A DNA stretch of 25,598 bases from the IMG/VR virus record IMGVR_UViG_2606217107_000001; one strand, given 5' to 3'. Of this stretch, positions 1 to 24,281 are shown piece by piece; position 1 is the first letter of the stretch; each line of letters starts with the position of its first letter. Made by a program: the position numbers and the translations under genes. The stretch comes from a virus (Duplodnaviria > Heunggongvirae > Uroviricota > Caudoviricetes). Below the pieces are notes generated by a model. That model was given only the letters and a program-made list of their open reading frames with translations, was not told the DNA's origin and searched no databases.

Positions 1-33
1 GGATCAGTTGACCGATCCAGTGGCTGTGTAAGA

Positions 34-67
34 ATCCGGAAACGCTCACTTGTTTCCGGATTTTTTT
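34..67 (+). promoter_or_regulatory. Perfect 10-bp stem-loop plus T-tract immediately upstream of the transposase ATG (terminator-like; likely blocks read-in transcription or translation)
   Basis: atccggaaac (34..43), loop gctcactt, gtttccggat (52..61), then tttttt (62..67) directly before ATG at 68. Repeated identically in copy 2 at 24248..24281. Confidence 0.5.
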
Positions 68-10045: not shown

Positions 10046-10475
10046 TGCCGTCACGGTGCTGAAAACCAGTCCCGAGATGCTGCGGATATTCGTTGATAAC
10101 GGGAGTATTGCCTCCACGCTGGCGACGTCGTTGTCATTCGAAAAGCGTTACACGCTCAATGTGATTGTGACCGACTTTACCGGTGATTTTGACCTGCTCA
10201 TCGTGCCGGTGCTGGCGTGGCTGCGGGAAAATCAGCCCGACATCATGACCACCGACGCAGGCCAGAAAAAGGGCTTCACGTTTTATGCGGACATCAACAA
10301 TGACAGCAGCTTTGATATCAGCATCAGCCTGATGCTGACCGAGCGCACGCTGGTCAGTGAGGTGGACGGCGCGCTGCATGTGAAGAATATCCCGGAACCC
10401 CCGCCGCCGGAGCCGGTCACCCGCCCGATGGAGCTTTATATCAATGGTGAACTGGTGAGTAAGTGGGATGAATGA
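10008..10475 (+). CDS. R: Tail completion protein (P2 gpR-like), 155 aa
   Basis: ORF 10008..10475; position and length as for P2 gpR. Confidence 0.88.
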   Translation: MLKPDSLRRALTDAVTVLKTSPEMLRIFVDNGSIASTLATSLSFEKRYTLNVIVTDFTGDFDLLIVPVLAWLRENQPDIMTTDAGQKKGFTFYADINNDSSFDISISLMLTERTLVSEVDGALHVKNIPEPPPPEPVTRPMELYINGELVSKWDE

Positions 10476-10920
10476 GTTTAAGCGTTTTGAAGACCGGCTG
10501 ACCGGACTGATTGAGTCGCTGTCACCGTCAGGGCGTCGGCGACTGAGCGCCGAACTGGCGAAACGTCTGCGTCAGAGTCAGCAGCGCCGGGTGATGGCAC
10601 AGAAAGCCCCGGACGGCACACCCTACGCACCACGCCAGCAGCAGAGCGCCAGAAAAAAGACCGGTCGCGTTAAGCGAAAAATGTTTGCGAAACTTATCAC
10701 CAGTCGTTTTTTGCATATCCGCGCCAGCCCGGAGCAGGCATCAATGGAGTTTTACGGCGGGAAGTCGCCGAAAATCGCCAGTGTGCATCAGTTCGGTCTG
10801 TCGGAAGAAAACCGGAAAGACGGTAAGAAAATTGATTATCCGGCGCGTCCTCTGCTCGGCTTTACCGGTGAGGATGTGCAGATGATTGAAGAGATTATCC
10901 TGGCTCACCTCGACCGTTAG
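10468..10920 (+). CDS. S: Tail completion protein (P2 gpS-like), 150 aa
   Basis: ORF 10468..10920; overlaps the R stop; position and length as for P2 gpS. Confidence 0.88.
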   Translation: MNEFKRFEDRLTGLIESLSPSGRRRLSAELAKRLRQSQQRRVMAQKAPDGTPYAPRQQQSARKKTGRVKRKMFAKLITSRFLHIRASPEQASMEFYGGKSPKIASVHQFGLSEENRKDGKKIDYPARPLLGFTGEDVQMIEEIILAHLDR

Positions 10921-10986
10921 TTGTGCCATTCCCGACACCTCATCGGCACATTGCCGCCGGTATGACCCGGCGGCATCCTTCCCGTT
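10921..10986 (+). promoter_or_regulatory. Intergenic region expected to hold the late promoter for the V-W-J-I-H-G operon
   Basis: 66-bp gap between S and V, the position of the P2 late promoter P_V; motif not confirmed. Confidence 0.35.
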
Positions 10987-11622
10987 ATGAACACTCTCGC
11001 AAATATTCAGGAACTCGCGCGCGCACTGCGCAACATGATCCGCACCGGCATTATCGTCGAAACCGACCTTAACGCCGGTCGCTGCCGTGTGCAGACCGGC
11101 GGCATGTGCACCGACTGGCTTCAGTGGCTGACCCATCGCGCCGGACGTTCGCGCACATGGTGGGCACCTTCCGTGGGGGAACAGGTGCTGATTCTGGCCG
11201 TGGGCGGTGAACTCGACACGGCGTTCGTTCTGCCGGGGATTTATTCCGGCGATAACCCCGCGCCGTCTGCGTCGGCGGATGCCCTGCATATCCGTTTCCC
11301 TGACGGGGCGGTGATTGAGTATGAACCCGAAACCAGTGCACTCACGGTAAGCGGAATTAAAACGGCCAGCGTGACGGCTTCTGATTCTGTTACTGCCACG
11401 GTGCCGGTGGTCATGGTGAAAGCGTCAACCCGCATCACCCTGGACACCCCGGAGGTGGTCTGCACCAACAGACTGATTACCGGCACGCTGGAAGTGCAGA
11501 AGGGCGGGACGATGCGCGGCAACATTAAACATACCGGCGGTGAACTCTCATCAAACGGTAAGGTACTGCATACCCATAAACACCCCGGCGACAGCGGCGG
11601 CACAACCGGGAGTCCTCTATGA
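10987..11622 (+). CDS. V: Baseplate central spike protein (P2 gpV-like), 211 aa
   Basis: ORF 10987..11622; recognised as P2 gpV. Confidence 0.9.
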   Translation: MNTLANIQELARALRNMIRTGIIVETDLNAGRCRVQTGGMCTDWLQWLTHRAGRSRTWWAPSVGEQVLILAVGGELDTAFVLPGIYSGDNPAPSASADALHIRFPDGAVIEYEPETSALTVSGIKTASVTASDSVTATVPVVMVKASTRITLDTPEVVCTNRLITGTLEVQKGGTMRGNIKHTGGELSSNGKVLHTHKHPGDSGGTTGSPL

Positions 11623-11966
11623 CAGCGCGTTATCTTGGAATGAATCGCAGTGATGGCCTGACTGTCACTGACCTTGAGCATATCAGCCAGAGTATCGGCG
11701 ATATCCTGCGCACGCCGGTCGGCTCACGGGTGATGCGTCGTGATTACGGCTCATTGCTGGCGTCAATGATTGACCAGCCGCAGACCCCGGCGCTTGAGTT
11801 GCAGATTAAGGTCGCCTGTTACATGGCGGTGCTGAAATGGGAACCCCGCGTCACCCTGTCATCCGTCACCACTGAGCGCAGTTTTGACGGGCGAATGACG
11901 GTCACGTTAACCGGCCAGCACAACGACACCGGCCAGCCACTTTCGTTAACCATCCCTGTGAGTTGA
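11619..11966 (+). CDS. W: Baseplate wedge protein (P2 gpW-like), 115 aa
   Basis: ORF 11619..11966; GGGAG ribosome-binding site; overlaps the V stop. Confidence 0.9.
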   Translation: MTARYLGMNRSDGLTVTDLEHISQSIGDILRTPVGSRVMRRDYGSLLASMIDQPQTPALELQIKVACYMAVLKWEPRVTLSSVTTERSFDGRMTVTLTGQHNDTGQPLSLTIPVS

Positions 11967-11970
11967 AACC

Positions 11971-12879
11971 ATGCCGATTATCGACCTGAACCAGCTACCC
12001 GCACCGGATGTGGTCGAGGAGCTGGACTTTGAAACCATTCTTGCCGAACGCAAGGCGACACTGATTTCCCTTTACCCGGAAGACCAGCAGGAGGCGGTTG
12101 CCCGTACCCTGACGCTGGAATCCGAGCCTCTCGTCAAACTGCTGGAGGAAAATGCTTATCGTGAGCTTATCTGGCGTCAGCGTGTGAATGAGGCCGCACG
12201 GGCGGTAATGCTGGCCTGTGCCGCCGGTAATGACCTTGATGTGATTGGTGCCAATTACAACACCACGCGCCTGATTATCACCCCGGCAGATGATTCGACC
12301 ATCCCGCCGACACCGGCAGTGATGGAGTCTGACACCGATTATCGTCTGCGTATTCAGCAGGCGTTTGAGGGCTTAAGCGTCGCCGGGTCGGTGGGATCCT
12401 ATCAGTATCATGGTCGCAGTGCCGACGGGCGTGTCGCGGATATTTCTGTCACCAGTCCGTCTCCGGCCTGCGTCACCATCTCTGTGCTGTCACGTGAAAA
12501 TAACGGTGTGGCATCCGAAGACCTGCTGGCGGTGGTGCGCAACGCCCTTAATGGTGAGGACGTCAGACCGGTGGCCGACCGTGTGACCGTGCAGTCTGCC
12601 GTCATCGTTGAATACCAGATAAATGCCACGCTTTACCTTTATCCTGGCCCCGAAAGCGAACCCATTCGCGCTGCCGCCGTGAAAAAACTGGAAGCGTATA
12701 TCACGGCACAGCACCGGCTGGGGCGCGACATCCGACTGTCTGCCATTTATGCCGCTTTGCATGTGGAAGGCGTGCAGCGTGTCGAGCTGGCCGCACCACT
12801 GGCCGACATTGTGCTCAACAGTACGCAGGCGTCTTTCTGTACCGAATACCGCGTCGTGACCGGAGGCTCGGATGAGTGA
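11971..12879 (+). CDS. J: Baseplate assembly protein (P2 gpJ-like), 302 aa
   Basis: ORF 11971..12879; recognised as P2 gpJ. Confidence 0.9.
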   Translation: MPIIDLNQLPAPDVVEELDFETILAERKATLISLYPEDQQEAVARTLTLESEPLVKLLEENAYRELIWRQRVNEAARAVMLACAAGNDLDVIGANYNTTRLIITPADDSTIPPTPAVMESDTDYRLRIQQAFEGLSVAGSVGSYQYHGRSADGRVADISVTSPSPACVTISVLSRENNGVASEDLLAVVRNALNGEDVRPVADRVTVQSAVIVEYQINATLYLYPGPESEPIRAAAVKKLEAYITAQHRLGRDIRLSAIYAALHVEGVQRVELAAPLADIVLNSTQASFCTEYRVVTGGSDE

Positions 12880-13402
12880 TTCGCGCCTGCTGCCGACCGG
12901 CTCATCACCGCTTGAAGTTGCCGCCGCAAAAGCCTGTGCGGAAATTGAAAAAACGCCGGTCAGTATTCGTGAACTGTGGAACCCGAACACCTGTCCGGCA
13001 AATCTGCTGCCGTGGCTGGCGTGGGCGTTTTCGGTCGACAGGTGGGATGAAAAGTGGCCGGAAGCGATAAAACGCGCCGTTATCCGCGATGCCTATTTCA
13101 TCCACTGTCATAAAGGCACGATAGGTGCAATCCGGCGTGTGGTGGAGCCGCTCGGCTATCTCATCAACGTGACGGAGTGGTGGGAAAACAGTGACCCGCC
13201 CGGCACCTTCCGGCTTGATATTGGTGTACTGGAAAGCGGTATCACAGAGGCAATGTATCAGGAAATGGAACGGCTGATTGCCGATGCCAAACCTGCAAGC
13301 CGCCACCTTATTGGCCTGAACATTACCCGGGACATTCCCGGCTACCTGTTCGCCGGTGGTGTGGCTTACGACGGCGATGTAATTACGGTTTACCCCGGAT
13401 AA
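12872..13402 (+). CDS. I: Baseplate protein (P2 gpI-like), 176 aa
   Basis: ORF 12872..13402; GGAGG ribosome-binding site; overlaps the J stop. Confidence 0.9.
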   Translation: MSDSRLLPTGSSPLEVAAAKACAEIEKTPVSIRELWNPNTCPANLLPWLAWAFSVDRWDEKWPEAIKRAVIRDAYFIHCHKGTIGAIRRVVEPLGYLINVTEWWENSDPPGTFRLDIGVLESGITEAMYQEMERLIADAKPASRHLIGLNITRDIPGYLFAGGVAYDGDVITVYPG

Positions 13403-13412
13403 GTGAGGAATA

Positions 13413-15707
13413 ATGAGCACAAAATTCAAAACCGTTATCACCACTGCCGGTGCAGCAAAGCTGGCAGCGGCAACCGCACCGGGAGGGCGGAAGGTCAACA
13501 TTACCACGATGGCCGTCGGGGATGGCGGTGGTAAATTGCCTGTCCCGGATGCCGGACAGACCGGGCTTATCCACGAAGTCTGGCGACATGCGCTGAACAA
13601 AATCAGTCAGGACAAACGAAACAGTAATTATATTATCGCAGAACTGGTTATTCCGCCGGAGGTGGGCGGTTTCTGGATGCGTGAGCTTGGCCTGTACGAT
13701 GATGCGGGAACATTAATTGCCGTGGCGAACATGGCCGAAAGTTATAAGCCAGCTCTTGCCGAAGGCTCAGGGCGTTCGCAGACCTGTCGCATGGTCATCA
13801 TCGTCAGCAGTGTGGCCTCAGTGGCGCTGACCATTGACACCACAACGGTGATGGCAACGCAGGATTACGTTGATGACAAAATTGCAGAGCATGAACAGTC
13901 ACGACGTCACCCGGACGCCTCGCTGACCGCAAAAGGTTTTACTCAGTTAAGCAATGCGACCAACAGCACGTCTGAAACACTGGCCGCAACGCCGAAAGCG
14001 GTAAAGGCCGCGTATGATCTTGCTAACGGGAAATACACTGCGCAGGATGCCACCACAGCGCGAAAAGGCCTTGTCCAGCTCAGTAGCGCCACCAACAGCA
14101 CGTCTGAAACGCTCGCCGCAACACCAAAAGCGGTAAAGGCAGCATATGACCTTGCTAACGGGAAATACACTGCACAGGACGCCACCACAGCGCGAAAAGG
14201 TCTTGTCCAGCTCAGTAGCGCCACCAACAGCGATTCTGAAACGCTTGCGGCAACGCCAAAGGCGGTTAAGACAGCGTATGACCTTGCTAACGGGAAATAC
14301 ACTGCACAGGACGCCACCACGGCGCGGAAAGGTCTTGTTCAGCTCAGTAGCGCCACCAACAGTGATTCTGAAACGCTGGCCGCAACATCAAAAGCGGTGA
14401 AGTCTGCCTATGACAATGCTGAAAAACGTCTTCAGAAAGATCAGAACGGTGCGGATATTCCGGGAAAGGATACCTTCACGAAAAATATCGGTGCCTGTCG
14501 TGCTTATAGCGGCGCTTTGAGCACTGAAGCCGGAAACTGGACAACCGCTCAGTTTATTGAATGGCTGGATTCCCGTGGTGCATTTAATCATCCGTACTGG
14601 ATGTGCAAAGGCTCCTGGTCATATGCAAATAACAAAATCATTACGGATACCGGATGTGGTGATATCCACCTGGCTGGTTGTGTCGTCGAGGTCATGGGAA
14701 CTAAATCTGCAATCACTATCCGAGTGACCACGCCGACAACATCAAGTGGTGGCGGTACAACCAGCGCGCAATTCACTTACATTAATCATGGGGACGGCTA
14801 CTCCCCCGGCTGGCGTCGTGACTGGAATCGTCAGGGCGACTCAATGACCGGAACGATTAATCAGGATGGCGGAAGCCAGAATGCCTATATGTCTACGGCC
14901 TTATGTTCAGGCACCAGAGGCGGCAAAAAATATCTCAGAAAGTTTCGTGGTGGAGAAGGAGACACTATCTGGCATGAAACAGTACAGGGCGGGGTAATTC
15001 GCTGGGCGACAGGAAACTATGACGCTCAGGAAGAATTATCACTCAGCTCCGCTTATGGTCTTCGTTCTAGAGGTGAAATTACATCACTCAGTGCTAATGG
15101 TCTGCGCATTGCTTATGGCAATTATGGATTCTTTATCAGGAATGATGGTGGCAGCACATATTTAATGCTGACGGCCTCTGGTGATAAATTTGGGACATGG
15201 AACGGTTTAAGGCCGCTGACTATCAATAACGCTAATGGCGGAGTGTCAATGGGGCATGGCCTGAGTGTTACTGGTGATATTGCCTCAAGTACCAAAGTAC
15301 GTGCCGGTAGCGGGAAAAAGTTCACGGTCAGCAGCAGCAATACATCCACGAAGGAAGCCGCATTCAATTTGTGGGGAAACTCAAGTCGTCCGGTGGTGGC
15401 TGAATTAGGTGATGATGCAGGCTGGCATTTTTACAGTCAGAGAAATACAGATAACAGCATCACTTTTGCTGTTAACGGTCAGGTATCACCATCTAACTAC
15501 AGTAATTTTGATTCACGTTATGTACGCGATATCCGGCTTGGGACTCGAGTTGTCCAGACCATGCAGAAAGGGGTGATGTATGAGAAAGCAGGGCACGTAA
15601 TTACCGGGCTTGGTATTGTCGGTGAAGTCGATGGTGATGACCCCGCAGTATTCAGACCAATACAAAAATACATCAATGGAACATGGTATAACGTCGCACA
15701 GGTGTAA
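13413..15707 (+). CDS. H: Tail fibre protein (P2 gpH-like) with expanded internal repeats and a divergent distal domain, 764 aa
   Basis: ORF 13413..15707; P2 H-like N-terminus (MSTKFKTVITTAGAAKLAAAT...). Contains ~3.6 tandem copies of a 44-aa unit. Longer than the ~669 aa I recall for P2 H; distal part is lower in GC. Confidence 0.9.
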   Translation: MSTKFKTVITTAGAAKLAAATAPGGRKVNITTMAVGDGGGKLPVPDAGQTGLIHEVWRHALNKISQDKRNSNYIIAELVIPPEVGGFWMRELGLYDDAGTLIAVANMAESYKPALAEGSGRSQTCRMVIIVSSVASVALTIDTTTVMATQDYVDDKIAEHEQSRRHPDASLTAKGFTQLSNATNSTSETLAATPKAVKAAYDLANGKYTAQDATTARKGLVQLSSATNSTSETLAATPKAVKAAYDLANGKYTAQDATTARKGLVQLSSATNSDSETLAATPKAVKTAYDLANGKYTAQDATTARKGLVQLSSATNSDSETLAATSKAVKSAYDNAEKRLQKDQNGADIPGKDTFTKNIGACRAYSGALSTEAGNWTTAQFIEWLDSRGAFNHPYWMCKGSWSYANNKIITDTGCGDIHLAGCVVEVMGTKSAITIRVTTPTTSSGGGTTSAQFTYINHGDGYSPGWRRDWNRQGDSMTGTINQDGGSQNAYMSTALCSGTRGGKKYLRKFRGGEGDTIWHETVQGGVIRWATGNYDAQEELSLSSAYGLRSRGEITSLSANGLRIAYGNYGFFIRNDGGSTYLMLTASGDKFGTWNGLRPLTINNANGGVSMGHGLSVTGDIASSTKVRAGSGKKFTVSSSNTSTKEAAFNLWGNSSRPVVAELGDDAGWHFYSQRNTDNSITFAVNGQVSPSNYSNFDSRYVRDIRLGTRVVQTMQKGVMYEKAGHVITGLGIVGEVDGDDPAVFRPIQKYINGTWYNVAQV
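13944..14417 (+). repeat. Tandem 132-bp in-frame coding repeat (~3.6 copies) inside tail fibre gene H
   Basis: gctaacggg recurs at 14022, 14154 and 14286 (period 132 bp); protein unit QLS(S/N)ATNS(T/D)SETLAATPKAVK(A/T)AYDLANGKYTAQDATTARKGLV repeats at residues ~178, 222, 266 and 310. Confidence 0.9.
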
Positions 15708-15710
15708 TTT

Positions 15711-16238
15711 ATGCAGCATTTAAAAAATATTACTGCGGGTAATCCAAAAACTGTTGCCCAATATCAACTGACAAAAAATTTTGATGTTATCTGGTTATGG
15801 TCCGAAGAGGGAAAAAACTGGTATGAGGAAGTAAGTAATTTTCAGGAAGACACGATAAAGATTGTTTACGACGAGAATAATATAATTGTCGGCATCACCA
15901 GAGATGCTTCAACGCTCAACCCTGAAGGTTATAGCGTTGTCGAGGTTCCTGATATTACCGCCAACCGACGTGCTGATGACTCAGGTAAATGGATGTTTAA
16001 GGATGGTGCCGTGATTAAGCGGATTTATACGGCAGACGAACAGCAACAACAGGCAGAATCACAAAAGGTCGCGTTACTTTCCGAAGCGGAAAGCGTTATT
16101 CAGCCACTGGAGCGCGCTGTCAGGCTGAACATGGCAACAGATGAGGAGCGTAGCCGACTGGAAGCATGGGAACGCTACAGTGTTCTGGTCAGCCGTGTGA
16201 ATCCTGCAAATCCTGAATGGCCGGAAATGCCGCAATAA
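15711..16238 (+). CDS. G: Tail fibre assembly chaperone (P2 gpG-like), 175 aa
   Basis: ORF 15711..16238; directly downstream of H; C-terminal part resembles the conserved tail fibre assembly domain. Confidence 0.85.
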
Positions 16239-16389
16239 GTTGTATGAGCTGACATATCTATAGCACAGAGTAAAGCCTAATCTGACAGTCTGCTCTGTGC
16301 AAGGAGCGGACATTACCTAACACATTGGTAACCTTCACAGATTTACGCGTTCTACATAGTTAGCATTGTATCTGATGAGTTATCATGTT

Positions 16390-17169
16390 TTAAAATATCC
16401 AACTGATAAATCCACCTGAATACTTTTCACTAATTTTGATTGCATAAAGATCATGAAGAGTTATAAATAAATCATTATCTTCTTTGAAAATTAACTCCTC
16501 ATATTCTGCCATTATCAAATTATGTTGTGTTGTTAGTTTAGATATGTTATCTATTTCACTGGCAAGCATGGATTTGTTTACATTGGTGTGTGGATCCATG
16601 GCAATATATTTCCGCATCAATGGAATTAGTTGATTAGGGTCTATATTTTTTGCATTTTCCTTTGCTTTTTTTTGTCTTTCTGAATAGATGGAGTTAATTG
16701 TGTTAGTGTGTTTTTTCGCCAGTCTCTTAAACTCTGGATATGAACCAGTAACTAATGCAAGCTCTTCGTACTTAAGGAACAAATCGATATTGCATTTTTT
16801 TACCGTTATTTCAAGATCTTCAACTCTTTTTTTTAACTCTTCATTTGTTTTAATAAGAGACATCGGGAGAACTTCATAATGTTGTCCTAATTCTGAATCA
16901 GGGCTCATTGCCATATGTACTATTTCATTATACATGAGCTGATAAGAAGCAGATAACTCTCCATACTTTAGAAATAGTTCATTGTGTGAAGATGAACAAG
17001 AACTTTGTAATTTCATCATTGGTCTAAAGTAATCCTTTATAAACTCCTCCTGAAGATCTTGGTCTTTTTTGTAGCTCTCTAGGATTCCAGCAAAAAGAAA
17101 TGATCCTAAAGATATAGAGATTATGGATATTAGCAATTGACTAAGGAATGATTGTGTTTCATTACTCAT
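16390..17169 (-). CDS. Hypothetical membrane-anchored protein encoded by an AT-rich insert at the Z/fun position; candidate exclusion or defence gene, 259 aa
   Basis: ORF 16390..17169 minus; AGGA ribosome-binding site 6 nt before the ATG; N-terminal hydrophobic helix (FLSQLLISIISISLGSFLFAGIL); internally repeated LFLKY(G/E)EL motif; region is far lower in GC than its flanks; opposite strand to the late operons. Function not recognised. Confidence 0.7.
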   Translation of the reverse strand: MSNETQSFLSQLLISIISISLGSFLFAGILESYKKDQDLQEEFIKDYFRPMMKLQSSCSSSHNELFLKYGELSASYQLMYNEIVHMAMSPDSELGQHYEVLPMSLIKTNEELKKRVEDLEITVKKCNIDLFLKYEELALVTGSYPEFKRLAKKHTNTINSIYSERQKKAKENAKNIDPNQLIPLMRKYIAMDPHTNVNKSMLASEIDNISKLTTQHNLIMAEYEELIFKEDNDLFITLHDLYAIKISEKYSGGFISWIF

Positions 17170-17446
17170 AAAACATCCTTAAAAAATAACACGAAAAGTG
17201 ACTCCTGACAGGGAAGAAACGACAGGTCGGAAACAAACTTAACTGATGAGTTAGCCGTAGTCCAGAACCTTGTTTGAACACTTAGTGTGACTGTTTGCAT
17301 CTCAGGAATTTGTGCCAATAACATTTGAATCCTTATAATTTATTTAAATCAAATTTAGTTACTCGCTCAAAGCAGGCTGTCAGATTTGATAGCATTTGGG
17401 CTATGTAAATTGTCAGGCGGAAAATGAGTGAGTACAAATCAAGACT

Positions 17447-17474
17447 GGCGGGCGAATTGCCCGCCTTTTCTTTA
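17447..17474 (+). terminator. Intrinsic terminator (plus strand) between the AT-rich insert and FI
   Basis: ggcgggc (17447..17453), loop gaatt, gcccgcc (17459..17465), followed by ttttctttat; T-run only on the plus strand. Confidence 0.6.
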
Positions 17475-17569
17475 TCTGTTGTTTCATCCACTGACCAGCT
17501 AGGTCAAATAGCGTCTCATGCACTGCCCAACAGACAATAGTTGCACCCATTAACCACGGAGTTAAACGG
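17475..17569 (+). promoter_or_regulatory. Region expected to hold the late promoter for the FI-FII-E-T-U-D operon
   Basis: Non-coding stretch between the terminator and the FI start, the position of P2 P_F; motif not confirmed. Confidence 0.35.
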
Positions 17570-18760
17570 ATGAGTGACTATCATCACGGCGTGCAGGTGC
17601 TGGAGATTAACGACGGCACCCGCGTCATTTCCACCGTATCCACTGCCATTGTCGGCATGGTCTGCACGGCCAGCGATGCGGATGCGGAAACCTTCCCCCT
17701 CAATAAACCTGTGCTGATTACCAATGTGCAGAGCGCAATTGCAAAGGCTGGTAAAAAAGGCACGCTGGCGGCATCGTTGCAGGCCATCGCCGACCAGTCA
17801 AAACCGGTCACCGTTGTCGTGCGTGTGGAAGACGGCACCGGCGACGACGAGGAAACGAAACTCGCGCAGACCGTTTCCAATATCATCGGCACCACCGACG
17901 AAAACGGTCAGTACACCGGACTGAAAGCCCTGCTGGCGGCGGAGTCGGTAACCGGTGTTAAACCGCGTATTCTCGGCGTGCCGGGACTGGACACCAAAGA
18001 GGTGGCTGTTGCACTGGCATCAGTCTGTCAGAAGTTGCGCGCTTTCGGGTATATCAGCGCATGGGGCTGTAAAACCATTTCCGAGGTGAAAGCCTACCGT
18101 CAGAATTTCAGCCAGCGTGAGCTGATGGTCATCTGGCCGGATTTCCTCGCATGGGATACGGTCACCAGTACCACCGCCACCGCGTATGCCACCGCCCGTG
18201 CGCTGGGGCTGCGCGCTAAAATCGACCAGGAGCAGGGCTGGCATAAAACGCTGTCCAATGTCGGGGTGAACGGTGTTACCGGCATCAGCGCCTCTGTATT
18301 CTGGGATTTGCAGGAGTCCGGCACCGATGCTGACCTGCTTAACGAGTCAGGCGTCACAACGCTGATTCGCCGCGACGGTTTTCGCTTCTGGGGTAACCGT
18401 ACCTGCTCTGATGACCCGCTGTTCCTCTTTGAAAACTACACCCGCACCGCGCAGGTGCTGGCTGACACGATGGCTGAGGCGCACATGTGGGCGGTGGACA
18501 AGCCCATCACCGCAACGCTGATTCGCGACATCGTTGACGGCATCAATGCCAAATTCCGTGAGCTGAAAACAAACGGCTATATCGTGGATGCGACCTGCTG
18601 GTTCAGCGAAGAATCCAACGATGCGGAAACCCTCAAGGCCGGAAAACTGTATATCGACTACGACTATACCCCGGTGCCTCCTCTTGAAAACCTGACCCTG
18701 CGCCAGCGTATTACCGATAAATACCTGGCAAATCTGGTCACCTCGGTTAACAGCAATTAA
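17570..18760 (+). CDS. FI: Tail sheath protein (P2 gpFI-like), 396 aa
   Basis: ORF 17570..18760; GGAG ribosome-binding site; recognised as P2 FI. Confidence 0.93.
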   Translation: MSDYHHGVQVLEINDGTRVISTVSTAIVGMVCTASDADAETFPLNKPVLITNVQSAIAKAGKKGTLAASLQAIADQSKPVTVVVRVEDGTGDDEETKLAQTVSNIIGTTDENGQYTGLKALLAAESVTGVKPRILGVPGLDTKEVAVALASVCQKLRAFGYISAWGCKTISEVKAYRQNFSQRELMVIWPDFLAWDTVTSTTATAYATARALGLRAKIDQEQGWHKTLSNVGVNGVTGISASVFWDLQESGTDADLLNESGVTTLIRRDGFRFWGNRTCSDDPLFLFENYTRTAQVLADTMAEAHMWAVDKPITATLIRDIVDGINAKFRELKTNGYIVDATCWFSEESNDAETLKAGKLYIDYDYTPVPPLENLTLRQRITDKYLANLVTSVNSN

Positions 18761-18772
18761 GGAGCCTGACCG

Positions 18773-19291
18773 ATGGCAATGCCGCGCAAACTCAAGTTAA
18801 TGAACGTCTTTCTGAACGGCTACAGCTATCAGGGCGTCGCGAAGTCCGTCACGCTGCCAAAACTGACCCGTAAGCTCGAAAACTATCGCGGTGCGGGGAT
18901 GAACGGCAGCGCACCGGTAGACCTCGGCCTTGATGACGATGCGCTGTCAATGGAGTGGTCGCTCGGTGGCTTCCCGGATTCGGTTATCTGGGAGCTTTAC
19001 GCCGCAACCGGTGTGGATGCCGTACCGATTCGTTTTGCAGGCTCTTACCAGCGCGACGATACCGGCGAAACGGTGGCCGTCGAGGTGGTCATGCGTGGAC
19101 GTCAGAAAGAAATCGACACCGGCGAGGGCAAACAGGGAGAAGACACCGAGTCGAAAATCTCCGTGGTCTGCACCTATTTCCGGCTGACGATGGACGGCAA
19201 GGAGCTGGTCGAAATCGACACCATCAACATGATTGAGAAGGTGAACGGCGTCGACCGGCTGGAGCAACACCGCCGCAATATCGGCCTGTGA
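18773..19291 (+). CDS. FII: Tail tube protein (P2 gpFII-like), 172 aa
   Basis: ORF 18773..19291; AAGGAG ribosome-binding site; recognised as P2 FII. Confidence 0.93.
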   Translation: MAMPRKLKLMNVFLNGYSYQGVAKSVTLPKLTRKLENYRGAGMNGSAPVDLGLDDDALSMEWSLGGFPDSVIWELYAATGVDAVPIRFAGSYQRDDTGETVAVEVVMRGRQKEIDTGEGKQGEDTESKISVVCTYFRLTMDGKELVEIDTINMIEKVNGVDRLEQHRRNIGL

Positions 19292-19298
19292 TTTTCAT

Positions 19299-19319
19299 CC
19301 GGTCAGCCTGGCTGACCGG
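19299..19319 (+). other. Perfect 9-bp stem, 3-nt loop hairpin between FII and E (possible attenuator or RNA-stability element)
   Basis: ccggtcagc ctg gctgaccgg; no T-run follows, so not a canonical terminator. Confidence 0.3.
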
Positions 19320-19347
19320 TTAACCCTGATTCATAAGTGAGAAAACC

Positions 19348-19623
19348 ATGAACAAAGAAAATGTCATTACCCTGGACAATCCGGTCAAACGTGGTGAGCA
19401 GGTTATCGAACAGGTCACGCTGATGAAACCCAGTGCCGGGACGCTGCGCGGTGTCAGTCTGGCAGCGGTCGCGAACTCCGAAGTCGATGCACTGATTAAG
19501 GAGCTGCCGCGCATGACGGCACCGATGCTGACCGAGCAGGAAGTCGCCGCGCTGGAACTGCCTGACCTTGTGGCGCTGGCCGGTAAGGTGGTCGGTTTTT
19601 TGTCGCCGAACTCGGTGCAGTGA
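19348..19623 (+). CDS. E: Tail assembly chaperone (P2 gpE-like), 91 aa
   Basis: ORF 19348..19623; position and length as for P2 gpE. Confidence 0.9.
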   Translation: MNKENVITLDNPVKRGEQVIEQVTLMKPSAGTLRGVSLAAVANSEVDALIKELPRMTAPMLTEQEVAALELPDLVALAGKVVGFLSPNSVQ

Positions 19624-19775
19624 CGTTTCCAAAAAATCTGTCGGTCGATGACCTGATGGCGGATGTGGCAGTGATATTTCACTGGCCGCCATCAGAACTG
19701 TATCCCATGAGCCTGACCGAACTCATCACATGGCGCGAAAAGGCGCTCCGGCGAAGCGGAAACACGAATGAGTAA
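19348..19775 (+). CDS. E: Tail assembly chaperone E+E' fusion made by a programmed -1 frameshift at T TTT TTG (19596..19602), 142 aa
   Basis: Slippery heptamer gg-tttttt-g near the 3' end of E. The -1 frame stays open to a stop at 19773..19775 (...FPKNLSVDDLMADVAVIFHWPPSELYPMSLTELITWREKALRRSGNTNE), overlapping the T start. Product length matches recalled P2 E+E'. Confidence 0.75.
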
Positions 19776-22215
19776 CAATGTAAAATTACAGGTATTGCTC
19801 AGGGCTGTTGACCAGGCATCCCGCCCGTTTAAATCCATCCGCACAGCGAGCAAGTCGCTGTCGGGGGATATCCGGGAAACACAAAAATCACTGCGCGAGC
19901 TGAACGGTCACGCATCCCGTATTGAGGGATTCCGCAAGACCAGCGCACAGCTCGCCGTGACTGGTCATGCACTTGAAAAGGCACGGCAGGAAGCCGAAGC
20001 CCTTGCCACACAGTTTAAAAATACCGAACGTCCGACCCGTGCTCAGGCGAAAGTGCTGGAATCCGCAAAGCGTGCGGCGGAGGACTTACAGGCGAAATAT
20101 AACCGCCTGACGGACTCCGTTAAACGCCAGCAGCGGGAACTGGCCGCTGTGGGAATTAATACCCGCAATCTTGCACATGATGAGCAGGGACTGAAAAACC
20201 GTATCAGTGAAACCACCGCACAGCTTAACCGTCAGCGTGACGCACTGGCGCGTGTCAGTGCACAACAGGCAAAACTTAACGCAGTAAAACAGCGTTATCA
20301 GGCAGGCAAGGAACTGGCCGGAAATATGGCCTCAGTGGGCGCTGCCGGTGTGGGGATTGCGGCGGCGGGAACGATGGCCGGAGTTAAGTTGCTGATGCCC
20401 GGTTATGAGTTTGCGCAGAAAAACTCAGAATTGCAGGCCGTGCTCGGAGTGGCAAAAGACTCCGCCGAAATGACCGCACTACGCAAACAGGCGCGCCAGC
20501 TCGGTGACAACACCGCCGCCTCGGCGGATGATGCGGCCGGTGCACAGATAATCATCGCGAAAGCGGGTGGGGATGTTGATGCCATTCAGGCGGCAACGCC
20601 GGTCACGCTGAATATGGCGCTGGCGAACCGCCGCACGATGGAAGAAAACGCCGCCCTGCTGATGGGGATGAAATCCGCCTTTCAGCTTTCAAACGATAAG
20701 GTCGCTCATATCGGGGATGTTCTCTCCATGACGATGAACAAAACCGCCGCCGATTTTGACGGCATGAGCGATGCGCTGACCTATGCCGCACCTGTGGCAA
20801 AAAATGCCGGTGTCAGCATTGAAGAAACCGCCGCAATGGTCGGGGCGCTGCATGATGCAAAAATCACAGGCTCAATGGCGGGGACGGGAAGCCGTGCCGT
20901 GTTAAGTCGCCTGCAGGCACCGACGGGAAAAGCATGGGATGCACTCAAAGAGCTTGGCGTGAAAACCTCAGACAGTAAGGGGAATACCCGACCAGTATTT
21001 ACCATTCTGAAAGAAATGCAGGCCAGCTTTGAGAAAAACCGGCTCGGTACTGCCCAGCAGGCTGAATACATGAAAACTATTTTCGGGGAGGAGGCCAGCT
21101 CAGCCGCCGCCGTGCTGATGACTGCCGCCTCAACCGGAAAGCTGGACAAACTGACCGCTGCGTTTAAAGCCTCAGACGGGAAGACCGCCGAGCTGGTAAA
21201 TATCATGCAGGACAACCTCGGCGGTGACTTTAAGGAGTTTCAGTCCGCTTATGAGGCGGTGGGGACAGACCTGTTTGACCAGCAGGAAGGCGCGCTACGT
21301 AAGCTCACGCAGACGGCCACAAAGTATGTGTTAAAACTCGACGGCTGGATACAGAAAAACAAATCACTGGCGTCAACCATTGGCCTCATTGCCGGTGGTG
21401 CGCTGGCGCTTACTGGCATCATCGGTGCAATTGGTCTTGTAGCCTGGCCGGTTATCACCGGCATCAATGCCATCATCGCGGCAGCAGGCGCAATGGGGGC
21501 AATCTTCACGACGGTTGGTAGTGCCGTTATGACGGCCATCGGGGCGATTAGCTGGCCGGTTGTGGCTGTGGTGGCCGCCATTGTCGCCGGGGCGTTGCTT
21601 ATCCGTAAATACTGGGAGCCTGTCAGCGCATTCTTTGGCGGTGTGGTTGAAGGGCTGAAAGCGGCATTTGCGCCGGTGGGGGAACTGTTCACGCCACTGA
21701 AGCCGGTGTTTGACTGGCTGGGCGAAAAGTTACAGGCCGCGTGGCAGTGGTTTAAAAACCTGATTGCCCCGGTCAAAGCCACCCAGGACACCCTGAACCG
21801 TTGCCGTGATACTGGCGTCATGTTCGGGCAGGCACTGGCTGACGCGCTGATGCTGCCGCTTAATGCGTTCAACAAACTGCGCAGCGGTATTGACTGGGTA
21901 CTGGAAAAGCTCGGGGTCATCAACAAAGAGTCAGACACACTTGACCAGACCGCCGCCAGAACTCATGTCGCCACGTATGGCACCGGTGGTTATATTCCGG
22001 CGACCAGCTCTTATGCAGGCTATCAGACTTATCAGCCGGTCACGGCACCGGCTGGCCGCTCTTATGTAGACCAGAGTAAAAACGAATATCACATCAGCCT
22101 GACGGGTGGTACTGAGCCGGGGACACAGCTTGACCGCCAGTTACAGGATGCGCTCGAAAAATACGAGCGGGATAAACGTGCGCGCGCCCGTGCCAGCATG
22201 ATGCATGACGGTTAA
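19768..22215 (+). CDS. T: Tail tape measure protein (P2 gpT-like), 815 aa
   Basis: ORF 19768..22215; long helical protein with a glycine/alanine-rich hydrophobic central segment; position as for P2 T. Confidence 0.92.
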   Translation: MSNNVKLQVLLRAVDQASRPFKSIRTASKSLSGDIRETQKSLRELNGHASRIEGFRKTSAQLAVTGHALEKARQEAEALATQFKNTERPTRAQAKVLESAKRAAEDLQAKYNRLTDSVKRQQRELAAVGINTRNLAHDEQGLKNRISETTAQLNRQRDALARVSAQQAKLNAVKQRYQAGKELAGNMASVGAAGVGIAAAGTMAGVKLLMPGYEFAQKNSELQAVLGVAKDSAEMTALRKQARQLGDNTAASADDAAGAQIIIAKAGGDVDAIQAATPVTLNMALANRRTMEENAALLMGMKSAFQLSNDKVAHIGDVLSMTMNKTAADFDGMSDALTYAAPVAKNAGVSIEETAAMVGALHDAKITGSMAGTGSRAVLSRLQAPTGKAWDALKELGVKTSDSKGNTRPVFTILKEMQASFEKNRLGTAQQAEYMKTIFGEEASSAAAVLMTAASTGKLDKLTAAFKASDGKTAELVNIMQDNLGGDFKEFQSAYEAVGTDLFDQQEGALRKLTQTATKYVLKLDGWIQKNKSLASTIGLIAGGALALTGIIGAIGLVAWPVITGINAIIAAAGAMGAIFTTVGSAVMTAIGAISWPVVAVVAAIVAGALLIRKYWEPVSAFFGGVVEGLKAAFAPVGELFTPLKPVFDWLGEKLQAAWQWFKNLIAPVKATQDTLNRCRDTGVMFGQALADALMLPLNAFNKLRSGIDWVLEKLGVINKESDTLDQTAARTHVATYGTGGYIPATSSYAGYQTYQPVTAPAGRSYVDQSKNEYHISLTGGTEPGTQLDRQLQDALEKYERDKRARARASMMHDG

Positions 22216-22229
22216 GGAGGTGACGAAAA

Positions 22230-22709
22230 ATGATGCTCGCGTTAGGTATGTTTGTTTTTATGCGCCAGACGCTGCCACACCAGACCATGCAGCGTGAATC
22301 AGATTATCGCTGGCCGTCAAATTCCCGTATCGGTAAACGGGATGCCTACCAGTTTCTCGGTGTTGGCGAGGAAAACATGACGCTTGCCGGTGTGCTTTAT
22401 CCTGAACTGACCGGTGGAAAGCTGACGATGACCACGCTCAGACTGATGGCAGAGGAAGGCCGGGCGTGGCCGTTGCTGGATGGCACCGGCATGATTTACG
22501 GCATGTATGTCATCAGCAGGGTGAGTGAAACAGGGAGTATTTTCTTTGCAGACGGCACACCCCGGAAAATTGATTTTACGCTGTCGCTCACCCGCGTTGA
22601 TGAATCACTGGCCGCGCTTTATGGCGATATCGGTAAACAGGCGGAATCGCTCATCGGTAAGGCTGGCAGTATGGCGACCAGATTCACGGGTATGACGGGG
22701 GCGGGATAA
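22230..22709 (+). CDS. U: Tail protein (P2 gpU-like), 159 aa
   Basis: ORF 22230..22709; AAGGAGG ribosome-binding site; recognised as P2 U. Confidence 0.9.
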   Translation: MMLALGMFVFMRQTLPHQTMQRESDYRWPSNSRIGKRDAYQFLGVGEENMTLAGVLYPELTGGKLTMTTLRLMAEEGRAWPLLDGTGMIYGMYVISRVSETGSIFFADGTPRKIDFTLSLTRVDESLAALYGDIGKQAESLIGKAGSMATRFTGMTGAG

Positions 22710-23872
22710 TGCTGGATGCGCTGACATTTGATGCTGGCAGTACGCTGACGCCGGATTACATGCTGATGCTCGACAGCAGGGATATTACCGGCAATATCAG
22801 TGACCGTCTGATGAGCATGACCCTGACGGATAACCGGGGCTTTGAGGCTGACCAGCTTGATATTGAACTGAACGATGCCGACGGGCAGGTCGGGCTGCCG
22901 GTTCGTGGCGCTGTCCTGACGGTGTATATCGGCTGGAAAGGGTTTGCCCTGGTATGCAAAGGGAAATTTACCGTTGATGAGGTTGAACACCGGGGCGCGC
23001 CGGATGTGGTTACCATCCGCGCCCGGAGTGCAGATTTTCGCGGGACGCTCAATTCCCGCCGGGAAGGCTCCTGGCATGACACCACGCTCGGTGCGATTGT
23101 TGAGGCGATAGCCTCCCGTAACAGGCTGGAAGCCAGTGTCGCTCCGTCACTGGCAAGAATTAAAATCCCGCACATCGACCAGTCGCAGGAGTCTGATGCG
23201 AAATTCCTGACCCGTCTTGCAGAACGCAACGGTGGTGAGGTCTCGGTAAAAATGGGAAAACTGTTGTTTCTCAAAGCGGGGCAGGGGGTGACGGCCAGTG
23301 GTAAAAAAATCCCGCAGGTCACCATAACCCGCAGCGACGGCGACCGCCATCATTTTGCGATTGCTGACCGTGGAGCCTATACCGGCGTAACGGCAAAGTG
23401 GTTACACACCAAAGACCCGAAGCCACAAAAGCAGAAGGTAAAACTGAAACGCAAAAAGAAAGAGAAACACCTGCGCGCACTGGAGCACCCGAAAGCGAAA
23501 CCGGTCAGGCAGAAGAAAGCGCCTAAAGTACCGGAAGCGCGCGAAGGTGAATACATGGCCGGTGAGGCTGACAACGTTTTTGCCCTGACTACGGTATATG
23601 CCACGAAAGCGCAGGCCATGCGCGCCGCTCAGGCGAAGTGGGATAAACTGCAACGGGGTGTGGCGGAGTTCTCCATCAGCCTGGCTACCGGTCGGGCAGA
23701 TATTTACACGGAAACACCGGTTAAAGTGTCAGGCTTTAAGCGCGTCATAGACGAGCAGGACTGGACAATCACTAAGGTGACACATTTTCTGAATAATAGC
23801 GGCTTCACGACGTCCCTGGAGCTTGAGGTCAGGCTTTCTGATGTGGAGTACGAAACAGAAGATGATGAGTGA
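22709..23872 (+). CDS. D: Tail protein (P2 gpD-like), 387 aa
   Basis: ORF 22709..23872; lysine-rich central segment; recognised as P2 D. Confidence 0.9.
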   Translation: MLDALTFDAGSTLTPDYMLMLDSRDITGNISDRLMSMTLTDNRGFEADQLDIELNDADGQVGLPVRGAVLTVYIGWKGFALVCKGKFTVDEVEHRGAPDVVTIRARSADFRGTLNSRREGSWHDTTLGAIVEAIASRNRLEASVAPSLARIKIPHIDQSQESDAKFLTRLAERNGGEVSVKMGKLLFLKAGQGVTASGKKIPQVTITRSDGDRHHFAIADRGAYTGVTAKWLHTKDPKPQKQKVKLKRKKKEKHLRALEHPKAKPVRQKKAPKVPEAREGEYMAGEADNVFALTTVYATKAQAMRAAQAKWDKLQRGVAEFSISLATGRADIYTETPVKVSGFKRVIDEQDWTITKVTHFLNNSGFTTSLELEVRLSDVEYETEDDE

Positions 23873-23953
23873 TGTTTTTGTTTTATCTGTTTGTTTTATA
23901 AGGATAAATTAACTAAAATGGCACCATCAACAAAACCGGAAGAGGTGCTCGCG
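23873..23953 (+). promoter_or_regulatory. AT-rich region upstream of ogr, presumably its own promoter
   Basis: 81-bp AT-rich gap before the ogr start; motif not resolved. Confidence 0.3.
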
Positions 23954-24172
23954 ATGTTTCATTGTCCTTTATGCCAGCATGCCGCACATGCGCGTACAAG
24001 TCGCTATATCACTGACACGACAAAAGAGCGTTATCACCAGTGTCAGAACGTGAATTGCAGCGCCACATTCATCACTTATGAGTCGGTACAGCGATATATC
24101 GTGAAGCCGGGAGAAGTCCACGCCGTAAGGCCGCACCCGTTGCCGTCAGGGCAGCAAATTATGTGGATGTGA
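23954..24172 (+). CDS. ogr: Late transcription activator Ogr (zinc-finger), 72 aa
   Basis: Inside ORF 23891..24172; start at ATG 23954 (MFHCPLCQHAAHARTSRY...), GAGG at 23942..23945; four cysteines (CPLC ... CQNVNC). Confidence 0.9.
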   Translation: MFHCPLCQHAAHARTSRYITDTTKERYHQCQNVNCSATFITYESVQRYIVKPGEVHAVRPHPLPSGQQIMWM

Positions 24173-24197
24173 TCACAAAAATAGCCCCTCAGTTGAG

Positions 24198-24215
24198 TAA
24201 TGCCGATCAGTTAAG
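24198..24215. repeat. IS4 left terminal inverted repeat (copy 2)
   Basis: taatgccgatcagttaag; imperfect inverse of 1392..1409. Confidence 0.8.
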
Positions 24216-24281
24216 GATCAGTTGACCGATCCAGTGGCTGTGTAAGAATCCGGAAACGCTCACTTGTTTCCGGATTTTTTT

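What the first reader, a model, noticed from the sequence alone, without database searches (positions are those of the whole stretch)
17447..17474. Terminator sits downstream of the insert, so late transcription may run antisense through the cargo gene
I see no convincing plus-strand intrinsic terminator directly after G (16239..16389 has an 8-bp inverted repeat at ~16263..16301 but no T-run). The first clear plus-strand terminator is at 17447..17474, after the minus-strand cargo gene and just before FI. This suggests the cargo was inserted between G and the original operon terminator. During lytic growth, late transcripts would then read antisense across the cargo gene, while in the lysogen the cargo would be expressed from its own promoter.
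Basis: inference. Interest (0 to 1): 0.45.

Follow-up and report, generated by a model that had tools for sequence, protein, structure and literature searches.

The report
P2 tail-operon terminator displaced by cargo
The hairpin at 17447-17474 is the ordinary transcription terminator that ends the tail-fibre operon of a P2-like phage, and a 1.2-kb accessory-gene cassette sits between the last operon gene and this terminator, so late phage transcription probably enters the cassette backwards, although this has not been measured.

Summary
GGCGGGC-GAATT-GCCCGCC plus TTTTCTTTA (17447-17474) is the only strong plus-strand intrinsic terminator in the 22.8-kb phage part of the window. Nothing comparable lies between the G stop (16238) and it.

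In relatives without an insert, including cultured Yersinia phage P37, the same hairpin starts 5 nt after the G stop and abuts the Ogr-dependent PF promoter of the sheath gene FI. In this window, which is 98% identical to Yersinia phage L-413C, about 1.2 kb of AT-rich DNA (16239-17441) lies between them. This is the known P2 "Z/fun" hotspot cassette, and its left and right inverted repeats are already annotated in GenBank. Here it carries a minus-strand gene for a 259-aa membrane-anchored helical protein of unknown function.

Across 45 cargo types at this site, genes occur in either orientation. Most minus-strand cargos, like this one, have no shielding terminator. P2 itself has one.

Actual antisense read-through remains an inference. 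Rho-dependent termination of the untranslated AT-rich RNA could stop it early.

The result is a solid, ordinary operon-boundary terminator and a modest new detail about a known hotspot.

The parts
15711..16238 (+). Gene G (tail fibre assembly protein), the last gene of the P2-type V late operon (V 10987, W, J, I, H, G)
   Evidence: phrog_136 E 1e-79 and Pfam Caudo_TAP. The upstream genes V, W, J and I match baseplate and tail families. L-413C annotates the same gene as G.
16239..17441 (.). The whole inserted 'Z-region' cassette: left repeat, AT-rich cargo and right repeat (66% A+T). It is absent from empty-site relatives.
   Evidence: Empty sites join the G stop to the hairpin with only 5 nt between.
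16239..16314 (.). Left inverted repeat of the cassette. It contains the GCACAGAG/CTCTGTGC hairpin (16263-16300) and an overlapping GTCTGCTCT/GGAGCGGAC hairpin.
   Evidence: It is conserved next to at least 45 different cargos. GenBank AJ512682 and AJ512685 annotate it as 'left inverted repeat'. It is complementary to the right repeat: duplex -54.8 kcal/mol against -31 +/- 4.6 for shuffles.
16390..17169 (-). Cargo gene: a 259-aa protein with an N-terminal membrane helix and a helical bundle, function unknown
   Evidence: phrog_7729; no Pfam or PADLOC hit. There are 46 homologues of fixed length 259 aa at 37-97% identity in Enterobacterales, Vibrio, Teredinibacter and Marinomonas. AlphaFold gives pLDDT 78 and an all-helical model. 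No PDB fold match reaches E < 0.05.
17362..17441 (.). Right inverted repeat of the cassette. Its inner ~10 nt, present in most relatives, are missing here.
   Evidence: GenBank annotates it as 'right inverted repeat', ending exactly where the hairpin begins.
17447..17474 (+). Rho-independent terminator of the V operon (backbone element): stem GGCGGGC/GCCCGCC, loop GAATT, tail TTTTCTTTA
   Evidence: In 39 distinct relatives 97.1% of stem cells pair, against 42-58% when the partner is slid. Two pairs show compensatory changes and the loop varies freely.
17476..17504 (+). Activator (Ogr-type) binding region of late promoter PF, placed by alignment to the site annotated in P2. It contains TGT-N12-CCA (17481-17498).
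   Evidence: P2 record AF063097 features and alignment A3.
17544..17546 (+). PF transcription start, inferred by homology to the start annotated in P2. The terminator T-tract ends about 71 nt upstream.
17570..18760 (+). Gene FI (tail sheath), the first gene of the F late operon
   Evidence: phrog_23 E 1.5e-159 and Pfam Phage_sheath_1.

Best explanation
The hairpin and T-tract at 17447-17474 form the conserved Rho-independent terminator that ends the P2-type V late operon (V-W-J-I-H-G). It insulates the Ogr-activated PF promoter, whose activator site begins 1-2 nt after the T-tract. In the ancestral arrangement the terminator lies 5 nt after the G stop codon. In this phage a 1.2-kb AT-rich cassette bounded by roughly 80-nt imperfect inverted repeats has been placed exactly between the G stop and the terminator. 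This is the known Z/fun hotspot cassette. Here it carries a minus-strand 259-aa membrane protein gene.

Because the cassette contains no plus-strand intrinsic terminator, RNA polymerase leaving G late in infection must enter the cassette antisense to the cargo gene. It stops either at the backbone terminator or earlier through Rho. In the lysogen, where late promoters are silent, the cargo would be transcribed from a promoter of its own.

Shown: the anatomy, the conservation of the hairpin, the empty sites, and the absence of an internal intrinsic terminator. Inferred: that the hairpin terminates in vivo, that read-through reaches across the cargo gene, and that this has any effect on cargo expression.
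For: The hairpin is strong and is the only such site on the plus strand of the phage part.

The stem is maintained across 39 distinct relatives by G-U-compatible and compensatory changes such as GACGGGC/GCCCGTC and AACGGGC/GCCCGTT, while the loop varies. More distant relatives have a different hairpin at the same place.

Empty sites exist in L010, L033, L035, L052, L070, L073, Yersinia phage P37 and the distant L077, L078, L080 and L081. All show G stop, 5 nt, hairpin, then PF.

The PF activator site and start site annotated in P2 align directly downstream.

The operon end after Q shows the same design of a stop codon, a few nt, then a terminator.

No plus-strand terminator candidate better than weak AT-rich hairpins lies in 16239-17446. 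There is no long plus-strand ORF there.

Across 45 cargo types every cassette lies upstream of the hairpin. About 19 of 26 types that contain minus-strand genes lack any plus-strand terminator candidate ahead of those genes.
Against: There is no transcript data of any kind.

The T-tract is interrupted (4 T, C, 3 T).

In several lineages the stem carries a mismatch: L-413C itself has GGCGAGC with dG -8.6, and P2, L057 and L069 are also weakened. The hairpin is therefore not under uniform constraint.

The P2 GenBank record names a different hairpin, between G and fun(Z), as the putative V-operon terminator.

The 1.2-kb stretch is untranslated on the plus strand. It has C>G windows at 16360-16480 and 16760-16840, so Rho could terminate before the cargo gene is crossed. 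From established knowledge, P2 late operons show Rho-dependent polarity, which P4 Psu suppresses.

No minus-strand promoter for the cargo passed the consensus scan.
Confidence: 0.75

Rival explanations
1. The hairpin is the backbone terminator, but late transcription never reaches it in cassette-bearing phages. Rho, possibly helped by H-NS on the AT-rich DNA, terminates the untranslated transcript soon after G, so the cargo gene sees little or no antisense transcription. In that case the hairpin mainly stops transcripts that arise inside the cassette from running into FI in the lysogen, which matters for plus-strand cargos.
For: The plus strand of 16239-17446 has no ORF longer than 63 codons and contains windows with C/G of 1.5-1.9. 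Many plus-oriented cargos have no terminator of their own and would rely on the backbone hairpin. From established knowledge, Rho suppresses untranslated and antisense transcripts and acts on P2 late operons, as shown by the polarity that P4 Psu suppresses.
Against: Overall C content is low, about 16%, which makes for a poor Rho-loading substrate. Nothing here measures Rho action.
Confidence: 0.3
2. The conserved left-repeat hairpins (16263-16300 or 16288-16312) act as a non-canonical terminator or as an RNA-processing site directly after G, so the V transcript effectively ends there.
For: The left flank is conserved next to all cargo types. In P2 it folds better than shuffles (z = -2.98). In a few relatives (L023, L069) the second hairpin is followed by a T-rich run and scores as a terminator candidate.
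Against: In this window no T-run follows either hairpin. The fold is not better than shuffles (z = -1.06 on the plus strand, +0.40 on the minus strand). The conservation is explained equally well by the flank being one arm of the cassette's inverted repeats.
Confidence: 0.1
3. The hairpin ends a small RNA made from the conserved right flank, starting at the promoter-like site 17312-17339. Alternatively, it lies inside a small ORF (17424-17540).
For: A GTGCCA-16-TATAAT match lies on the plus strand at 17312-17339. There is a weak sub-threshold Rfam match to PrrB/RsmZ over 17364-17473. A 39-codon ORF starts at 17424.
Against: The promoter-like site lies in cargo-specific DNA that other cassettes do not share, and promoter-like hits are no more frequent than in shuffles (10 against 11.2). 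The Rfam hit scores 15.7 bits against a gathering score of 44, E 0.71. The ORF's ATG is CTG, ATA or TTG in many relatives, and the start is absent from empty sites.
Confidence: 0.04

Closest known systems
Phage P2 Z/fun hotspot between G and FI, described as the Z-region or lysogenic conversion locus (GenBank AJ512682, AJ512685; cited as Calendar 1998 and Nilsson 2004 in bioRxiv 10.1101/2024.10.15.618418; called the 'second defence-enriched locus' in PMC9519451)
   Same: The position between G and FI is the same. The conserved left and right inverted repeats are the same, and so is the low G+C. The cargo is a single accessory gene of unknown or lysogenic-conversion type.
   Different: The cargo is a different gene: a 259-aa membrane helical protein instead of the 528-aa Fun(Z). 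This cassette has no plus-strand terminator of its own, and the inner end of the right repeat is truncated.
P2 'putative rho-independent terminator for V operon' (AF063097 15639-15666)
   Same: It has the same proposed role of ending the V-W-J-I-H-G transcript, on the same strand, with a hairpin and T-run.
   Different: It is a different sequence at a different place. It lies inside the cassette, 8 nt from the fun(Z) stop and 365 nt after G, and is not shared by other phages. The element studied here is the backbone hairpin next to PF. P2 also carries that hairpin, in a weakened form: GGTGAGC/GCCCGCC, with a fold no better than shuffles (z = 0.18).
Morons of lambdoid phages (from established knowledge: Juhala et al. 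2000; lambda bor and lom inside the late transcription unit, with bor on the opposite strand)
   Same: An AT-rich accessory gene is embedded in a late operon region. It is presumably expressed in the lysogen and exposed to late read-through, antisense in the case of bor.
   Different: Classical morons carry their own promoter and terminator, and I found no terminator here. Lambda late read-through is enforced by Q antitermination, whereas P2 has no known antiterminator, so read-through here depends only on the absence of terminators.
Invertase-bearing P2-like phages, which have an invertible tail-fibre segment at the same locus (described in bioRxiv 10.1101/2024.10.15.618418)
   Same: They share the G-FI locus and the PF promoter downstream.
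   Different: In that class a plus-strand ORF whose C-terminus reads as a Hin/Gin-type invertase by my reading of the sequence abuts PF. The backbone hairpin and the cassette repeats are both absent.

Membership tests
Rho-independent (intrinsic) terminator | G+C-rich stem-loop immediately followed by a T(U)-tract on the transcribed strand | tested here: met
   A 7-bp stem made entirely of G-C/C-G pairs, a 5-nt loop, then TTTTCTTTA. Hairpin dG is -14.9. The minus-strand reading has no T-tract.
Rho-independent (intrinsic) terminator | Intergenic position at the 3' end of a transcription unit | tested here: met
   In empty-site relatives it lies 5 nt after the stop of the last V-operon gene. In all relatives it lies directly upstream of PF.
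Rho-independent (intrinsic) terminator | Structure rather than sequence is conserved | tested here: met
   97.1% of stem cells pair, against 42-58% in slid controls. Two pairs have changes on both sides, the loop varies, and distant relatives have a different hairpin at the same place. The sequences are closely related, so the covariation evidence is modest.
Rho-independent (intrinsic) terminator | Terminates transcription in vivo or in vitro | not testable with these tools
   No transcript data were available, and no paper with 3'-end mapping of P2-like late operons was found in the held library.
P2 Z-region (Z/fun) hotspot cassette | Located between G and FI | tested here: met
P2 Z-region (Z/fun) hotspot cassette | Flanked by the conserved left and right inverted repeats annotated in AJ512682 and AJ512685 | tested here: met
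   The left repeat is complete. The right repeat is present but lacks its inner ~10 nt.
P2 Z-region (Z/fun) hotspot cassette | Cargo confers lysogenic conversion or anti-phage defence | not testable with these tools
   No PADLOC or Pfam hit. One source names a homologue 'Lysogenic conversion protein', which is an annotation and not a test.
Ogr/Delta-dependent P2 late promoter (PF) | Partial dyad TGT-N12-ACA centred near -55, upstream of a weak -10 | tested here: inconclusive
   TGT-N12-CCA at 17481-17498 is centred 55-56 nt upstream of the start site inferred by homology. P2's own annotated PF site also reads TGT-N12-CCA. Activation was not tested.
Moron (autonomous promoter-gene-terminator unit) | Own promoter upstream and own terminator downstream of the accessory gene | tested here: not met
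   No minus-strand terminator follows the cargo stop. No minus-strand promoter passed the consensus scan in 17170-17361. A good Shine-Dalgarno sequence (AAGGA) precedes the ATG.

The most novel reading that the evidence does not exclude
The hotspot's position inside the V transcription unit, upstream of its terminator, may be a built-in expression switch. During late growth, convergent transcription would silence minus-strand cargos such as this one, protecting the phage from its own defence or exclusion gene. Plus-strand cargos would be co-expressed with the tail fibres. In the read-through RNA the roughly 80-nt left and right repeats would pair into a long duplex (predicted -55 kcal/mol here), which RNase III could cut to excise the cassette RNA from the V mRNA.
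Probability: 0.12. Interest if true: 0.6.

Novelty: new member of a known kind. Interest (0 to 1): 0.3.

Why it matters
The G-FI hotspot of P2-like phages is now mined as a reservoir of anti-phage systems. Knowing that every cassette there sits inside the late V transcription unit, upstream of its conserved terminator, affects several things:
- how cargo expression should be interpreted, since cargo can be sense or antisense to late transcription;
- how native-context clones should be designed, in particular whether to include the backbone terminator;
- how operon ends are annotated, because the terminator named in the P2 reference record is cargo-borne and not the shared one.

It also gives a simple, testable case of transcriptional interference between a phage late operon and a prophage accessory gene.

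Tried and rejected
- Rfam over the whole window at gathering threshold gave no match. A permissive search of 16150-17650 gave only sub-threshold chance hits, including PrrB/RsmZ at 15.7 bits.
- The small-RNA and small-ORF readings of the right flank were rejected. The promoter-like site is cargo-specific, and the ATG is not conserved.
- I considered whether the flanking repeats are crossover sites of the Gin/Hin/Cin type, because other P2-like phages carry an invertase here. They lack the AAACC-NN-GGTTT core by inspection, so I rejected this. This was not a formal test.
- I noticed a partial resemblance of the left flank (GAGCTTACAT) to the ERIC repeat consensus, recalled from memory only. I did not pursue it.
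- Exact TGT-N12-ACA occurs only once in the window, inside H, and fewer times than chance would give. The real late promoters here use imperfect versions.
- Function of the cargo protein was not resolved. Pfam and PADLOC gave nothing. The structure is a TM helix plus a helical bundle, and Foldseek against PDB returned only generic helical bundles with E >= 0.05. Homologues also occur outside P2 phages, next to transposases and next to Imm26/DUF4303 genes, which gives no clear function.
- Literature: the Nilsson 2004, Haggard-Ljungquist 1992, Odegrip 2006 and Christie & Calendar 2016 papers are not in the held library. I therefore could not check whether the position of the terminator relative to the hotspot has been stated in print. 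The hotspot papers that are held do not discuss terminators at the P2 locus: the word does not occur in PMC9122126, PMC9519451 or bioRxiv 10.64898/2026.02.27.708500, and 10.1101/2024.10.15.618418 uses it only for genome-wide terminator prediction.
- I looked for a link between a weakened backbone hairpin and the presence of a cargo-borne terminator. P2 and L069 fit, but L-413C and L057 do not, and the sample is too small.

Full report
**What the window is.** The window is a P2-like (Peduovirus) prophage segment. Region 15900-17800 is 98.1% identical over its full length to Yersinia phage L-413C and 100% identical to an IMG/VR contig (L014). Family searches identify the following genes:
- portal Q (1741-2775, minus strand)
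- tail completion protein S (10468-10920)
- baseplate and tail genes V, W, J and I (10987-13402)
- tail fibre H (13413-15707)
- tail fibre assembly protein G (15711-16238)
- tail sheath FI (17570-18760)
- tail protein D (22709-23872)
- an Ogr-like regulator (23891-24172)

Between G and FI lies one minus-strand ORF (16390-17169, 259 aa). L-413C annotates it as hypothetical.

**The observation.** The hairpin GGCGGGC-GAATT-GCCCGCC (17447-17465), followed by TTTTCTTTA (to 17474), is real.
- It is the best terminator-like site in 12000-25598.
- It folds far better than shuffled sequence (z = -4.18).
- Under stringent criteria it is the only plus-strand hit in the 22.8-kb phage part. Twelve dinucleotide shuffles gave a mean of 0.4 hits on both strands together.
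- One of the two other stringent hits in the real sequence is the terminator directly after Q, at the end of the oppositely oriented P-Q operon. The second lies on the minus strand inside D.
- Between the G stop and 17447 there are only weak AT-rich hairpins with poor tails.

**Is the hairpin backbone or cargo?** I fetched 80 loci encoding close relatives of FI and mapped G, the flanks and FI in each.

Six close relatives have no insert: L010, L033, L035, L052, L070 and L073. In these the G stop TAA is followed by 5 nt (ATACA or ACACA) and then the same hairpin, T-tract, PF region and FI. The G-FI gap is 128-132 nt. The cultured Yersinia phage P37 has the same arrangement. More distant relatives, with FI 87-91% identical (L077, L078, L080, L081), also have a G+C-rich hairpin and T-run a few nt after the stop of the upstream gene. 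In L078 the stem sequence is different: AACGGGC-CCCG-GCCCGTT.

In an alignment of 39 distinct sequences:
- 97.1% of stem cells form standard pairs, against 42-58% when the 3' partner is slid by 1-3 columns.
- Two of the seven pairs show changes on both sides.
- The remaining variation is mostly G-U compatible.
- The loop varies freely (GAATT, TGATT, GGATT, TTATT, GAGTT, AGATT, ATTT).

The sequences are closely related, so this supports a structural constraint but is not strong covariation evidence. A few lineages carry a stem mismatch. These include L-413C itself (GGCGAGC; hairpin dG drops from -14.9 to -8.6), P2, L057 and L069.

**What lies downstream.** The P2 reference record annotates the PF activator-binding site and the F-operon transcription start. 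Aligning the window to P2 places the activator region at 17476-17504 and the start at about 17544-17546. The activator region contains TGT-N12-CCA, the same imperfect dyad as P2's own site. The T-tract therefore ends 1-2 nt before the activator region, about 71 nt upstream of the PF start. This is a terminator-promoter junction between two co-directional late operons. By contrast, no terminator separates S from the V promoter region.

**What the insert is.** The 1.2 kb from 16239 to about 17441 is 66% A+T. Its first ~75 nt and last ~80 nt are conserved next to many unrelated cargos and are absent from empty sites. The two flanks are inverted repeats of each other along their whole length. The predicted duplex is -54.8 kcal/mol in this window against -31 +/- 4.6 for shuffles, and -47 to -72 in relatives.

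This is already known. GenBank records AJ512682 and AJ512685 ("proviral Z-region" of P2-EC53 and P2-EC67) annotate a "left inverted repeat" and a "right inverted repeat". The right repeat ends exactly where the hairpin starts. The locus is the Z/fun hotspot of P2, noted again in recent defence-system surveys (PMC9519451; bioRxiv 10.1101/2024.10.15.618418; bioRxiv 10.64898/2026.02.27.708500). None of the held hotspot papers discusses a terminator at this locus. The primary P2 papers are not in the held library.

**How general the arrangement is.** A scan of IMG/VR for the right repeat, combined with the earlier loci, gave 119 loci with both flanks, falling into 45 cargo types. All of them lie upstream of the backbone hairpin.
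- 18 types carry only plus-strand genes.
- 15 types carry only minus-strand genes.
- 11 types are mixed. By my reading, the main plus-strand genes lie nearer G than the main minus-strand genes; a few types (L124, L119, L106) also carry further or short ORFs that break the order.
- 1 type has no ORF of at least 80 aa.

Of the 26 types that contain minus-strand genes, about 19 have no plus-strand terminator candidate (dG <= -9 plus a T-run) ahead of those genes. The window's type (12 loci) is one of these. P2 differs. Its record annotates a "putative rho-independent terminator for V operon" 8 nt from the fun(Z) stop. That hairpin folds well (z = -2.95), whereas P2's copy of the backbone hairpin is degraded (z = 0.18). 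The element named as the V terminator in the reference genome is therefore cargo-borne. The shared, ancestral terminator is the one next to PF.

**How it most likely works.** The anatomy is shown: operon, cassette, terminator, PF. The rest is inferred. Late in infection, polymerase that has transcribed G meets no intrinsic terminator for 1.2 kb. It therefore transcribes the cassette antisense to the cargo gene until the backbone hairpin. In the lysogen the cargo is read from its own promoter. It has a good AAGGA ribosome-binding site, but I could not pin down a promoter.

The main caveat is Rho. The plus strand of the cassette has no ORF longer than 63 codons, and it has two stretches with C/G of 1.5-1.9, although C content is only about 16%. 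It is established that Rho acts on untranslated P2 late RNA; this is the polarity that P4 Psu suppresses. Read-through may therefore be partial. The backbone hairpin also has a clear role for plus-strand cargos. Many of them lack their own terminator, so the hairpin would keep lysogenic cargo transcription out of the sheath operon.

**The cargo.** The 259-aa protein belongs to a family of fixed length found in Enterobacterales, Vibrio, Teredinibacter and Marinomonas. It has no Pfam or PADLOC match. The predicted structure is an N-terminal membrane helix followed by a long helical bundle (pLDDT 78). It has no informative match among solved structures. Homologues also occur outside P2 phages, beside an IS110 transposase in Teredinibacter and beside Imm26/DUF4303 genes in Pectobacterium. 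It is therefore a mobile single-gene module of unknown function.

**Verdict.** Antisense read-through is a sensible but untested consequence. The terminator is an ordinary member of a known kind, and the hotspot and its repeats are already described. What is added here is the placement of the hotspot inside the V transcription unit, and the distinction between the backbone terminator and P2's cargo-borne one.

Noticed in passing
window 1-1384 and 24215-25598: The two ends of the window are 100% identical over 1384 nt and match IS4, so the late-gene block (Q ... D, ogr) is bracketed by IS4 copies, or else the source contig was wrapped at a repeat. The early region (int, C, cox, B, A) is not in the window, so I cannot tell whether this prophage can still run late transcription on its own.
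   Followed up: partly
window 16239-16314 and 17362-17441; relatives L004-L194: The cassette's flanks are imperfect inverted repeats of roughly 80 nt that reach the very ends of the insert (GTTGTA... / ...TACAA). In most relatives a 33-36-bp near-perfect core directly borders the variable DNA. GenBank AJ512682 and AJ512685 already annotate them. In a read-through RNA they would form a long duplex. No clear target-site duplication was seen.
   Followed up: partly
45 cargo types in loci L004-L194: In the 11 mixed-orientation cassettes the main plus-strand genes lie nearer G and the main minus-strand genes nearer FI, giving a mainly convergent layout; in a few types (L124, L119, L106) extra or short ORFs break the order. 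This suggests inward-facing promoters near both repeats, or assembly from two half-cassettes.
   Followed up: no
loci L005, L006, L017, L019, L020, L024, L028, L032, L037, L038, L042, L045-L047, L061, L065 (about 150 nt upstream of FI): A second class of close relatives, with FI 99-100% identical, lacks both the hairpin and the cassette repeats. A plus-strand ORF ending ...STLYKKFPSSATKN*, which I read as a Hin/Gin-type invertase C-terminus, runs right up to the PF activator site. This fits the invertible tail-fibre segments reported at this locus.
   Followed up: partly
L003 (P2 AF063097) 3018-3058 and L001 (L-413C) 3040-3080: The backbone hairpin is weakened in P2 (GGTGAGC/GCCCGCC) and in L-413C (GGCGAGC/GCCCGCC). 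P2 has a substitute terminator inside its cassette, but L-413C does not.
   Followed up: partly
window 17411-17446 versus 16212-16243: The end of the right flank (GGCGGAAAATGAGTGAGTACAAATCA) resembles the 3' end of G plus the empty-site spacer (GGCCGGAAATGCCGCAATAAATACA). ATGAGTGAGTA at 17424 also echoes the FI start ATGAGTGACTA. These may be traces of how the cassette was first captured.
   Followed up: no
window 10918-10986: No terminator separates S from V. The V promoter's imperfect dyad (TGT-N12-ACC at 10922-10939) starts 2 nt after the S stop, so the O and V operons may be read through, unlike the G/FI boundary.
   Followed up: no
window 23309-23338, minus strand: A strong terminator-like hairpin with a T-run (dG -15.1) lies on the minus strand inside gene D. 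It is unexplained and possibly a chance match.
   Followed up: no
L197/L198 (Pectobacterium) and L195 (Teredinibacter): Homologues of the 259-aa cargo protein occur outside P2 phages, next to Imm26 and DUF4303 genes and next to IS110 or ISL3 transposases. The gene moves as a stand-alone module.
   Followed up: partly
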